This document shows, piece after piece, positions 26,343-28,235 of a DNA stretch of 64,000 nucleotides. The notes beneath the pieces were generated by a model. That model ran no database searches and had not been told where the DNA came from. It saw only the letters and a list, made by a program, of their open reading frames with translations. Positions within the stretch are counted from its first letter, which is position 1. Each line of letters begins with the position of its first letter. Made by a program: the position numbers and the translations under genes. Source of the stretch: Escherichia coli (GTDB lineage: Bacteria > Pseudomonadota > Gammaproteobacteria > Enterobacterales > Enterobacteriaceae); assembly GCF_013122565.1 (NCBI RefSeq), contig NZ_CP053258.1, one strand, 5' to 3'.

Positions 26343-28235
26343 TTACATCACCAGACGGCGAATGTCAGACAGCGTGTTGTTAATGATGGTAATGAAACGG
26401 GCACCATCAGCACCGTCGATCACGCGGTGGTCGAAGGAGAGAGAAATCGGCAGCATCAGACGCGGCACGAACTCTTTACCATTCCACACCGGCTCCATCG
26501 CGGACTTGGAAACGCCGAGGATAGCCACTTCCGGCGCGTTCACAATCGGCGCGAAGTGGGTAGTACCCAGGCCGCCGATGCTGGAGATGGTGAAGCAACC
26601 GCCCTGCATTTCGCCCGCAGTCAGCTTACCGTCACGCGCTTTCTTAGAAATAGTCATCAGCTCGCGAGACAGCTCGATGATGCCTTTCTTGTTGACGTCT
26701 TTGAATACCGGAACAACCAGACCGTTCGGGGTATCCACCGCCACACCGATGTTGATGTATTTCTTCAGGGTCAGACGCTGACCGTCTTCCGACAGCGAAC
26801 TGTTGAAGCGAGGCATCTGCTCAAGAGCTGCAGCAACGGCTTTCATGATGAAGACAACTGGGGTGATCTTCACATCCAGCTTACGTTTCGCCGCTTCTTC
26901 GTTCTGCTGTTTACGGAACGCTTCCAACTCGGTGATATCGGTTTTGTCGAAGTGAGTAACATGCGGGATCATTACCCAGTTACGGCTCAGGTTCGCACCA
27001 GAGATTTTCTGGATGCGGCCCAGTTCCACTTCTTCGATTTCACCAAACTTGCTGAAGTCCACCTTCGGCCACGGCAGCATGCCAGGGATACCACCGCCAG
27101 TCGCTGCCGGAGCTGCTTCTGCACGTTTGATAGCTTCTTTCACGTAAGCCTGAACGTCTTCGCGCAGGATACGACCTTTACGGCCAGTGCCCTTCACTTT
27201 CGCAAGGTTAACGCCAAACTCGCGTGCCAGACGGCGGATCAGCGGAGTCGCGTGAACGTAAGCGTCATTTTCAGCAAATTCAGATTTGCCTTCAGCTTTC
27301 GCAGCCGGTGCTGCTGCCGGGGCTTCAGCTTTTGCTGCCGGAGCCGGCGCTGCTGCTTCCTGTTTCGCAGGAGCTGCCGCAGGCGCTGCGCCTTCAACTT
27401 CAAAGATCATAATCAGCGAGCCAGTTTTCACTTTATCGCCAACGTTGACTTTCAGTTCCTTCACGACGCCTGCAAACGGAGCCGGAACTTCCATAGAAGC
27501 TTTATCGCCTTCTACGGTGATCAGTGACTGTTCAGCGGCAACTTTGTCGCCCACTTTCACCATCACTTCGGTCACTTCAACTTCGTCACCGCCGATATCC
27601 GGAACGTTAACTTCTTTCACGCCAGCCGCTGGTGCAGGGGCCGCTGCCGGAGCTGCTTCCTGTTTAGCGGCCGGAGCTGCCGCGCCTGCTTCACCCGCGA
27701 CTTCGAAGACCATAATCAGCGAGCCGGTAGACACTTTGTCACCCACGTTCACTTTGATCTCTTTCACGGTGCCAGCAAACGGAGCCGGAACTTCCATAGA
27801 AGCCTTGTCGCCTTCTACGGTGATCAGCGACTGCTCAGCTTCAACTTTGTCGCCAACTTTCACCAGGATTTCGGTCACTTCAACTTCGTCGCTGCCGATA
27901 TCCGGAACGTTAACATCTTTTGCCGCCGCAGCCGCGGGTGCTGCTGCCGGAGCTGCTTCTTTCTTCTCTTCTGCCTGAGCAGGTGCAGCGTCTGCTGCAC
28001 CGTCGGCGGAATCGAAAATCATAATCAGTGCGCCGGTCTGGGTTTTATCGCCAACAGAGACTTTGATCTCTTTAACGATACCCGCCTGCGGAGACGGAAC
28101 TTCCATAGAGGCTTTGTCGCCTTCTACGGTGATCAGCGACTGTTCGGCTTCAACTTTGTCGCCCACTTTGACCAGGATCTCGGTGATTTCAACTTCATCA
28201 GCCCCGATGTCCGGTACTTTGATTTCGATAGCCAT
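26343..28235 (-). CDS. aceF: Pyruvate dehydrogenase E2 (dihydrolipoamide acetyltransferase)
   Basis: Recognised AceF 630 aa; three lipoyl domains (…[10 protein letters not shown]… x3) separated by Ala/Pro linkers. Confidence 0.95.
27335..28235 (-). repeat. Three tandem ~300-bp coding repeats (the three lipoyl domains of AceF)
   Basis: Protein repeats [37 protein letters not shown] occur three times; the opposite-strand shadow ORF shows the same periodicity. Confidence 0.85.

What the first reader, a model, noticed from the sequence alone, without database searches (positions are those of the whole stretch)
27335..28235. Triplicated lipoyl domains in aceF create long tandem DNA repeats
Three ~100-aa lipoyl domains with Ala/Pro linkers give ~300-bp tandem repeats with high nucleotide identity, a known substrate for recombinational gain or loss of domains. 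This also explains the repetitive shadow ORFs on the opposite strand.
Basis: partly seen in the sequence, partly recalled or inferred. Interest (0 to 1): 0.2.

Follow-up and report, generated by a model that had tools for sequence, protein, structure and literature searches.

The report
Triplicated lipoyl domains in aceF
This is the well-known threefold repeat of the lipoyl "swinging-arm" domain at the start of the E. coli pyruvate dehydrogenase E2 gene (aceF); the repeat is real but only 72-79% identical, and public genomes show it occasionally loses or gains one whole domain.

Summary
ORF 26343..28235 (-) is E. coli aceF. Its protein is identical to K-12 AceF and PDB 7b9k. Its first ~900 nt are three tandem units of 309, 303 and ~300 nt, each a ~78-aa lipoyl domain plus an Ala/Pro linker.

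"High nucleotide identity" is overstated. The units are 72-79% identical (74-83% in the domain cores), and the longest exact shared runs are 29, 29 and 20 nt. The opposite-strand ORFs are repetitive shadows with no Pfam match.

The recombination idea is supported by natural variants:
- 6 of 5,423 complete E. coli genomes carry an in-frame two-domain aceF: four lip2N/lip3C hybrids in different allelic backgrounds and two lip1N/lip2C hybrids.
- One complete genome has an out-of-register 64-aa deletion.
- No complete genome has four domains or one domain.
- Four-domain alleles exist in a few draft E. coli, Salmonella and Citrobacter assemblies.
- Crossovers map to the conserved [17 protein letters not shown] core.

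Of 70 Enterobacterales species with a complete aceF, 63 keep three domains. lip1 is an old, separate lineage. lip2 and lip3 show partial homogenisation.

The feature has been textbook knowledge since 1983-85, so interest is low. The within-species survey of copy-number variants is a modest addition.

The parts
26343..28235 (-). aceF, dihydrolipoyllysine-residue acetyltransferase (E2p) of the pyruvate dehydrogenase complex, 630 aa
   Evidence: ORF; translation; Pfam domains; NCBIfam NF008814 equivalog at 1101 bits; identical over 630 aa to PDB 7b9k_A; RefSeq aceF
28002..28235 (-). lipoyl domain 1 (aa 1-78); lipoyl-lysine K41 codon at 28113-28115
   Evidence: hmmsearch envelope 1-78; Pfam Biotin_lipoyl with 3 stretches; DKA motif read from the translation
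27927..28001 (-). Ala/Pro/charged linker 1 (aa 79-103)
   Evidence: translation; unit alignment
27693..27926 (-). lipoyl domain 2 (aa 104-181); lipoyl-lysine K144 codon at 27804-27806
27624..27692 (-). Ala/Pro linker 2 (aa 182-204)
27390..27623 (-). lipoyl domain 3 (aa 205-282); lipoyl-lysine K245 codon at 27501-27503; matches PDB 1qjo (innermost lipoyl domain)
27258..27389 (-). long Ala/Pro/Lys linker 3 (aa 283-326), with short 33-nt and 12-nt tandem repeats (27290-27389)
   Evidence: TRF rows at 27290-27370 and 27366-27389; D2-D4 short repeat families
27150..27257 (-). peripheral subunit (E1/E3) binding domain, aa 327-362
   Evidence: Pfam E3_binding, 1.9e-16
26349..27041 (-). catalytic acetyltransferase core domain, aa 399-629
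   Evidence: Pfam 2-oxoacid_dh, 2.4e-80; PDB 4n72
28114..28142 (-). 29-nt run identical to 27805-27833 (unit 1 / unit 2), encoding [10 protein letters not shown]; lies in the crossover zone of the lip1/lip2 hybrids
   Evidence: longest exact run at gene 94-122 / 403-431; crossover in L005 maps to unit positions 91-119
27775..27803 (-). 29-nt run identical to 27472-27500 (unit 2 / unit 3), encoding [10 protein letters not shown]; lies in the crossover zone of the lip2/lip3 hybrids
   Evidence: gene 433-461 / 736-764; crossovers in L004 and L008-L011 fall within unit positions ~100-152
27286..27978 (+). antisense shadow ORF (230 aa), internally repeated; not a gene
   Evidence: translation shows two ~100-aa copies; no Pfam family
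28063..28269 (+). antisense shadow ORF (68 aa), third copy of the same antisense translation
26298..27527 (+). antisense shadow ORF (409 aa) over the aceF 3' half; not a gene

Best explanation
The stretch is the 5' third of E. coli aceF. It encodes three tandem lipoyl domains of about 78 aa, each carrying a lipoyl-lysine in a DKA hairpin (K41, K144, K245). The domains are joined by flexible Ala/Pro-rich linkers to the subunit-binding domain and the 24-mer catalytic core.

The domains act as redundant swinging arms that carry acetyl groups between the E1, E2 and E3 active sites. This function comes from the literature and was not tested here.

The DNA periodicity of 309/303 nt is the footprint of an old domain triplication. 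lip1 split from lip2/lip3 before the Enterobacterales radiated. lip2 and lip3 are closer and have been partly homogenised in some lineages.

Because the domain core ([17 protein letters not shown]) is conserved down to runs of 20-32 identical nucleotides, misaligned recombination or replication slippage between units occasionally removes or adds exactly one unit in frame, leaving a hybrid domain. Such alleles occur in nature at about 0.1% in E. coli, so three domains is evidently the selected state.

The long repetitive ORFs on the + strand are non-coding mirror images of the repeat.
For: Identity and architecture.

Repeat statistics.

Loss alleles in complete genomes:
- aceF of 1590 nt / 529 aa (lip1 plus a lip2N/lip3C hybrid) occurs in strains C2, VTB97379v, Rb-50 and C4. 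These differ from each other at 12-22 nt in aceF and 13-21 nt in the adjacent 1438 nt of aceE, so they sit in different backgrounds.
- An intact 527-aa lip1N/lip2C hybrid plus lip3 occurs in strains 01_3327 and 03_3013.
- No single-domain hybrid was found.

Gain alleles:
- The 731-733-aa forms P0003 and P0001 have clean single-crossover hybrid units and perfect 303- or 309-nt periodic runs of 308-356 nt.
- P0011, P0012 and P0014 have the same architecture in other SNP backgrounds.
- None of 5,422-5,423 complete genomes carries either four-domain junction.

Prevalence by exact look-up: the 529-aa form is on 182 contigs, within a cluster of 305 member sequences (the members listed are 529-530 aa); the 527-aa form is on 454 contigs; the four-domain forms are on 2-4 contigs.

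Across species: 63 of 70 complete Enterobacterales aceF genes have three domains, five have two and one has one. The reduced forms again look like hybrids, e.g. Ca. Symbiopectobacterium lip1N/lip3C.

Orthology: the nearest neighbour of lip1 is lip1 of another species in 63/63 cases. For 7 lip2 or lip3 domains the nearest neighbour is the paralogue in the same genome. Within-genome lip2-lip3 identity ranges 78-94%.

Codon test: identical codons at identical residues exceed the operon codon-usage expectation, most strongly for lip2-lip3 (48 vs 32.9, P about 1e-4).

Literature: aceF sequence and the engineered deletion of lipoyl domains (Stephens 1983 and Guest 1985, cited in PMC8421416, and PMC5013485); domains 73% identical and acting redundantly (PMC8421416); natural loss of domains in Serratia symbiotica (PMC5013485).
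Against: The identity between units is only 72-79%, and the longest perfect runs in this window are 29 nt. That is at the lower edge of what RecA-dependent recombination in E. coli is generally thought to need (my own knowledge, not tested here). The repeat is therefore a poor rather than a good recombination substrate.

Some mapped crossover intervals are only 5 nt wide (L002, L006). These fit slippage, template switching or mismatch-corrected heteroduplex better than simple crossing-over.

Four-domain alleles are seen only in draft or metagenome assemblies. Several ENA hits are evident chimeras (P0002, P0010, P0015, P0025, P0040), so some of the variation could be assembly artefact. Contig counts for two-domain forms include short-read assemblies that might collapse repeats.

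No function or fitness effect was measured here.
Confidence: 0.96

Rival explanations
1. The similarity of the three units is kept up mainly by continuing gene conversion (full concerted evolution). Under this view it does not come from purifying selection on an old triplication.
For: Identical codons at identical residues exceed the codon-usage expectation. For 7 of 126 lip2/lip3 domains the nearest relative is the paralogue in the same genome, and within-genome lip2-lip3 identity reaches 94% in some species. E. coli lip2 is as close to other species' lip3 (81.8%) as to their lip2 (82.1%). The Mixta tenebrionis STGDKV expansions occur in both lip2 and lip3.
Against: lip1 is always closest to lip1 of other species (63/63). 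It is 87.5% identical to its orthologues but only 72-73% to paralogues. Position-specific residues (SPQAG/FDSADG in lip1, FEVAGE in lip2, FEVEG in lip3) are shared by E. coli, Salmonella and Citrobacter. Third positions are only 50-60% identical within this gene. Conversion is therefore partial and confined to lip2/lip3.
Confidence: 0.25
2. The two-domain and four-domain alleles are sequencing or assembly artefacts (collapsed or expanded repeats), and the domain number in E. coli is effectively invariant.
For: Four-domain alleles occur only in draft or metagenome assemblies. Neither four-domain junction was found in any of the 5,422-5,423 complete genomes searched. Several ENA proteins are obvious chimeras of E. 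coli with other enterics, or have shuffled domains. L003 has a noisy hybrid pattern.
Against: Six closed, complete genomes carry clean in-frame two-domain genes. Four of these are in different allelic backgrounds. Units only 75-83% identical and 300 nt long are not normally collapsed by assemblers (my judgement, not tested). The same exact variant proteins recur on 182 and 454 contigs from NCBI, ENA and Logan. The hybrid units show single clean crossovers with zero unexplained sites.
Confidence: 0.12
3. The long + strand ORFs (27286..27978, 26298..27527, 28063..28269) are real overlapping antisense genes rather than shadows.
For: They are long (230 and 409 aa) and free of stop codons.
Against: None of them matches a Pfam family. 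Their composition is low-complexity Ala/Ser/Thr/Cys/Arg-rich. Their internal repeat has exactly the period of the aceF repeat on the other strand. RefSeq annotates nothing there in the close strain 720632.
Confidence: 0.02

Closest known systems
E. coli K-12 AceF (UniProt P06959; PDB 7b9k, 1qjo, 4n72)
   Same: The 630-aa protein is identical. All 17 nucleotide differences from a K-12 line are synonymous. It has the same three lipoyl domains, PSBD and catalytic core.
   Different: The DNA allele differs: 98.8% identity to K-12 lines across the repeat region, with the best matches at 99.7-99.8% to strains OkiPb01695 and 720632. This shifts the longest identical runs between units to 29/29/20 nt here, against 32/23/26 nt in K-12.
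Engineered E. coli PDH complexes with fewer or more lipoyl domains (Guest et al. 1985 J Mol Biol 185:743, cited in PMC5013485 and PMC8421416; later constructs with up to nine domains are from my own recollection)
   Same: The natural two-domain alleles found here are in-frame fusions of neighbouring domains, like the engineered deletions that retained activity.
   Different: These arose spontaneously in wild and clinical isolates. The natural range seen is 1-4 domains. Their activity was not measured here.
Domain loss in AceF of Serratia symbiotica endosymbionts (PMC5013485)
   Same: One or two lipoyl domains are lost in genome-reduced lineages. The same pattern appears here in Ca. Erwinia dacicola (2 domains) and Ca. 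Symbiopectobacterium (1 domain).
   Different: In free-living E. coli the loss is a rare within-species polymorphism, not a fixed state.
E2 chains of other 2-oxoacid dehydrogenase complexes (E. coli SucB, Bacillus and mitochondrial E2p)
   Same: The same lipoyl-PSBD-core plan. The number of lipoyl domains is 1-3 depending on species (PMC6270654).
   Different: SucB has a single lipoyl domain, so it has no tandem DNA repeat.

Membership tests
AceF / E2p of the pyruvate dehydrogenase complex (long, multi-lipoyl form) | Full-length match to the curated equivalog model above its cut-off | tested here: met
   NF008814 scores 1101.5 bits (cut-off 722) and TIGR01348 scores 1041.6 bits (cut-off 552)
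AceF / E2p of the pyruvate dehydrogenase complex (long, multi-lipoyl form) | Domain order: lipoyl domain(s), peripheral subunit-binding domain, 2-oxoacid_dh catalytic domain | tested here: met
   Pfam finds PF00364 x3, PF02817 (aa 327-362) and PF00198 (aa 399-629)
AceF / E2p of the pyruvate dehydrogenase complex (long, multi-lipoyl form) | Operon context pdhR-aceE-aceF-lpd | tested here: met
   aceE (PDH_E1_M, transketolase domains) lies immediately upstream and lpd (Pyr_redox_2/dim) downstream. The collinear RefSeq annotation includes pdhR
AceF / E2p of the pyruvate dehydrogenase complex (long, multi-lipoyl form) | Catalytic DHRxxDG motif of the acyltransferase core | tested here: met
   [11 protein letters not shown] is present near the C-terminus
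Lipoyl domain (Pfam PF00364, barrel-sandwich hybrid) | Lipoylatable lysine in a conserved (E)GDKA hairpin in every copy | tested here: met
   [11 protein letters not shown] is present three times, at K41, K144 and K245
Lipoyl domain (Pfam PF00364, barrel-sandwich hybrid) | Actual lipoylation and reductive acetylation of each domain | not testable with these tools
   Known from the literature for the identical K-12 protein (PMC8421416)
Tandem repeat that changes copy number by recombination between units | Natural alleles that differ by exactly one unit and carry a hybrid unit with a single crossover | tested here: met
   Deletions of 303 and 309 nt in six complete genomes; insertions of 303 and 309 nt in draft assemblies
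Tandem repeat that changes copy number by recombination between units | Dependence on RecA / homologous recombination as opposed to slippage | not testable with these tools
   Crossover intervals are 5-53 nt, which is compatible with either mechanism

The most novel reading that the evidence does not exclude
The number of lipoyl domains in AceF may be a recurrent, heritable polymorphism within E. coli and its relatives, with two, three and rarely four domains. It would be produced repeatedly at the conserved domain core. At least two two-domain alleles have spread in lineages (exact proteins seen on 182 and 454 contigs), which raises the possibility that a shorter swinging-arm array is neutral or even favoured in some niches. 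Natural four-domain E2p chains would also exceed the '1-3' range quoted in reviews.
Probability: 0.3. Interest if true: 0.35.

Novelty: already known. Interest (0 to 1): 0.15.

Why it matters
The repeat itself has been textbook material since the aceF sequence (1983) and the domain-deletion work (1985), so the finding adds nothing new about the gene.

The survey adds three points:
- Three domains is strongly maintained: 99.9% of complete E. coli genomes and 90% of sampled Enterobacterales species.
- In-frame loss and gain of one domain nevertheless recur naturally, at the most conserved 50 nt of the domain.
- Annotation pipelines can mislabel such alleles as pseudogenes.

This gives a natural set of strains in which the old question 'why three lipoyl domains?' could be tested by competition experiments.

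Tried and rejected
1. Coverage from the whole-gene and 941-nt megablast searches could not detect copy-number variants. Alignments run on into the paralogous unit, so coverage stays at 80% or more. I switched to hybrid-junction queries.

2. The protein search ranks by summed score, so only longer (four-domain) variants surfaced. Two-domain forms had to be found at DNA level instead.

3. I tested for single-domain E. coli alleles (lip1N/lip3C junction) and found none; the best match was 93.4%.

4. I checked whether aceF copies reported on 'plasmids' meant mobile copies. All are records of 0.27-5.4 Mb (nine E. coli, two Klebsiella pneumoniae), predicted non-mobilizable; most are as large as chromosomes or big chromosome pieces.

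5. I asked whether the window-versus-K-12 SNPs in the repeats are conversion tracts. At 7 of 8 core sites one allele equals both paralogous bases. That is equally expected from a new mutation on an ancestral identity, so it is not decisive.

6. Literature searches for earlier reports of natural E. coli domain-number variants found none in the held library. This is not proof of absence.

7. Buttiauxella agrestis ATCC 33320 appears twice, with 2 and 3 domains. The two assemblies differ at 6% of nucleotides in the gene's 3' end, so they are not the same organism and do not show assembly collapse.

Full report
**1. What is there**

The window is a stretch of E. coli chromosome running from htrE/yad through pan, acnB, yacH, lpdA, aceF, aceE, pdhR and aroP to secA, lpxC and ftsZ. 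The annotation is collinear with strain 720632.

ORF 26343..28235 on the minus strand translates to a 630-aa protein with these matches:
- Pfam finds three Biotin_lipoyl stretches, an E3_binding domain (aa 327-362) and a 2-oxoacid_dh catalytic domain (aa 399-629).
- It matches the NCBIfam aceF equivalog NF008814 at 1101 bits, against a cut-off of 722.
- It is identical over its full length to PDB chain 7b9k_A, the E. coli E2p.
- aceE lies 14 nt upstream and lpd lies downstream.
- RefSeq calls the same DNA aceF in 5,423 of 5,426 complete E. coli genomes.

**2. The observation**

The repeat is real and far beyond chance.
- TRF gives an array at 27408-28214 with period 303, 2.6 copies, 80% matches and score 922.
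- The repeat finder gives three in-register 300-nt copies starting at 27337, 27640 and 27949.
- The self-comparison peaks at offsets 303, 309 and 612 only.
- The 240-nt cores are 74-83% identical, against 27.2 +/- 3.1% (maximum 40.8%) for random in-frame pairs from the same operon.

The units are 103, 101 and about 100 codons long. Each is a ~78-aa lipoyl domain carrying the [11 protein letters not shown] hairpin (lipoyl-lysines K41, K144, K245) plus an Ala/Pro-rich linker. The finding's coordinates (codons 1-300) are correct.

**3.

'High nucleotide identity' is not accurate.
- Codon-aligned identity is 74% (units 1-2), 72% (1-3) and 79% (2-3).
- Third codon positions are only 50-60% identical.
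- The longest exact shared runs are 29 nt (gene 94-122 / 403-431), 29 nt (433-461 / 736-764) and 20 nt. In K-12 the runs are 32, 23 and 26 nt.

Identical codons at identical residues do exceed what the operon's codon usage predicts: 39 vs 30.2, 36 vs 28.3 and 48 vs 32.9, with P about 0.01, 0.02 and 1e-4. Synonymous sites are therefore near, but not at, saturation. The excess is strongest between units 2 and 3.

**4. Shadow ORFs**

The + strand ORF 27286..27978 (230 aa) holds two copies of one antisense translation (...[59 protein letters not shown]...). ORF 28063..28269 holds the third copy, and 26298..27527 (409 aa) covers the 3' half of the gene. None matches a Pfam family, and nothing is annotated there in a close genome.

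**5. Does the repeat gain and lose units in nature?**

Yes, but rarely. I searched 5,426 complete E. coli genomes with hybrid-junction queries.

Loss:
- A lip2N/lip3C junction is present at 97.8-98.9% identity in four genomes. All other genomes score 95.5% or less.
- In those four strains (C2, VTB97379v, Rb-50, C4) aceF is 1590 nt / 529 aa, exactly 303 nt short.
- The four genes differ from each other at 12-22 sites, and at 13-21 sites in the adjacent 1438 nt of aceE. Two carry the ERIC-containing form of the aceF-lpdA spacer described in section 7 and two lack it. They therefore sit in different backgrounds and are most simply independent events.
- All four crossovers lie within unit positions ~100-152, the [22 protein letters not shown] core.
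- A lip1N/lip2C junction occurs in two related genomes, 01_3327 and 03_3013. The ORF there is intact (527 aa with an ATG start), although PGAP labels it a pseudogene 'missing N-terminus'.
- No genome has a lip1N/lip3C single-domain junction.
- Strain 463 has a different lesion. A 192-nt (64-aa) out-of-register deletion joins KVN of the second half of lip2 to VGDKV of the first half of lip3, using the VGDKV motif that occurs twice per domain.

Gain:
- The protein search returned 727-735-aa E. coli AceF proteins.
- P0001 is lip1-[lip2N/lip1C]-lip2-lip3.
- P0003, P0011, P0012 and P0014 are lip1-lip2-[lip3N/lip2C]-lip3 in distinct SNP backgrounds.
- Their DNA (L002-L006) shows perfect 303- or 309-nt periodic runs of 308-356 nt. 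The hybrid units have a single switch from one parental pattern to the other and no unexplained sites. L003, a metagenome contig, is the noisy exception.
- L005 and L006 encode the same protein but switch at different places (unit 91-119 versus 67-71), so they are separate events.
- Neither four-domain junction exists in any complete genome. The best matches are 96.0% and 94.0%.
- Four-domain forms also exist in Salmonella (P0026, P0034, P0037) and Citrobacter (P0036).

Prevalence by exact look-up:
- The 529-aa form is on 182 contigs, inside a cluster of 305 member sequences (those listed are 529-530 aa).
- The 527-aa form is on 454 contigs.
- The strain-463 form is on 6 contigs.
- The four-domain forms are on 2-4 contigs.

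Several ENA 'variants' are evident chimeras and should be discounted.

**6. Across species**

Eighty Enterobacterales species loci were fetched, and 70 contain a complete aceF.
- 63 have three domains.
- 5 have two: Brenneria sp. hezel4-2-4, Buttiauxella agrestis ATCC 33320, Pantoea sp. A4, Yersinia thracica and the symbiont Ca. Erwinia dacicola.
- 1 has one: the symbiont Ca. Symbiopectobacterium, a lip1N/lip3C hybrid.
- Mixta tenebrionis has three domains with inserted STGDKV repeats.

This agrees with the reported loss of domains in Serratia symbiotica (PMC5013485).

Nearest-neighbour analysis of the 189 domains gives the following:
- lip1 is a separate orthologous lineage. In 63/63 cases its nearest neighbour is lip1 of another species. 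It is 87.5% identical to orthologues and 72-73% to paralogues.
- lip2 and lip3 are barely separable. E. coli lip2 is 82.1% identical to other species' lip2 and 81.8% to their lip3.
- For 7 lip2 or lip3 domains the nearest relative is the paralogue in the same genome.
- Within-genome lip2-lip3 identity ranges from 78% to 94%. E. coli, at 83%, is at the low end.

The triplication is therefore old. Homogenisation, by conversion or by loss-and-reduplication cycles of the kind seen in section 5, affects lip2 and lip3 only.

**7. Mechanism**

Shown here: the architecture, the repeat, the natural one-unit gains and losses with hybrid domains, and their concentration in the most conserved ~50 nt of the unit.

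Inferred: the molecular route. Crossover intervals of 23-53 identical nucleotides fit homologous (homeologous) recombination. Intervals of 5 nt (L002, L006) and the strain-463 deletion at a short VGDKV repeat fit slippage or template switching, or heteroduplex correction.

From the literature:
- The domains act as redundant swinging arms, and one domain suffices for activity in vitro (Guest et al. 1985, cited in PMC5013485 and PMC8421416).
- The three domains are about 73% identical (PMC8421416).
- E2 chains are said to carry one to three lipoyl domains (PMC6270654).
- That three domains are optimal for growth is my recollection of later work from the Guest laboratory and was not verified here.

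**8. Verdict**

The finding is correct and already known, and it deserves the low score its author gave it. The additions from this check are a corrected figure for identity, a population count of copy-number variants with mapped junctions, and evidence that lip2/lip3, but not lip1, evolve partly in concert.

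Noticed in passing
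window 26136-26342 (aceF-lpdA intergenic): The spacer is 207 nt here but 324 nt in K-12-like strains (C2, 720632). The extra ~117 nt in those strains carries ...AATCCCCAGGAGCTTACATAAGTAAGTGACTGGGGTGAGGGCG..., which I recognise from memory as the core of an ERIC/IRU element. The window, Rb-50 and C4 lack it, and no ERIC core occurs anywhere in the window.
   Followed up: partly
L001:1806-3503 (E. coli strain 463, NZ_CP183105.1): aceF has a 192-nt (64-aa) out-of-register in-frame deletion that fuses lip2 (through KVN163) to lip3 (from V228). It uses the VGDKV motif that occurs twice per domain. The product has one normal domain plus a 1.4-domain chimera with two lipoyl-lysine hairpins. The exact protein is on 6 contigs.
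   Followed up: partly
L012:1771-3354 and L013:1771-3354 (strains 01_3327, 03_3013): PGAP annotates the two-domain aceF as a pseudogene ('incomplete; missing N-terminus'). The ORF is intact, in frame and starts with the normal ATG. This looks like an annotation artefact of length-based model matching.
   Followed up: yes
L030 (Mixta tenebrionis BIT-26 aceF): Both lip2 and lip3 carry tandem expansions of the hexapeptide STGDKV (6 and 5 copies) inside the domain, giving a 670-aa protein. This is either a real microsatellite-like expansion copied between paralogues or an assembly artefact.
   Followed up: no
window 27276-28235 versus 26343-27275 and 28250-29440: All 17 aceF differences between the window and a K-12 line are synonymous. 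They are concentrated in the lipoyl/linker third: 12 in 960 nt, against 5 in 933 nt of the rest of aceF and 2 in 1191 nt of aceE. Only 63 of 5,423 genomes are 99% or more identical to the window in the repeat region.
   Followed up: partly
proteins P0038 (668 aa) and P0035 (680 aa), NCBI E. coli: Other in-frame partial duplications in AceF were seen: 38 aa inside lip2 (TVEGDK...SLIMV repeated) and 50 aa inside the E3-binding domain.
   Followed up: no
window 27290-27389: The Ala/Pro/Lys linker after lip3 is itself a short tandem repeat (33-nt and 12-nt periods). Small in-frame length variants in aceF occur among strains: -12 nt in H26, H73 and H89, +6 nt in H87, and a 629-aa protein P0118. I did not map where in the gene the DNA indels lie.
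   Followed up: partly
PLSDB records AP026530.1, CP061270.1, NZ_OL790696.1 and others: aceF matches in the plasmid collection are all on records of 0.27-5.4 Mb predicted non-mobilizable (nine E. coli, two Klebsiella pneumoniae); most are the size of chromosomes or large chromosome fragments rather than ordinary plasmids.
   Followed up: yes
L014:12707-15097 (strain 720632, the closest complete genome): gcd (quinoprotein glucose dehydrogenase) is annotated as a pseudogene with an internal stop in strain 720632. I did not check whether the window shares this.
   Followed up: no
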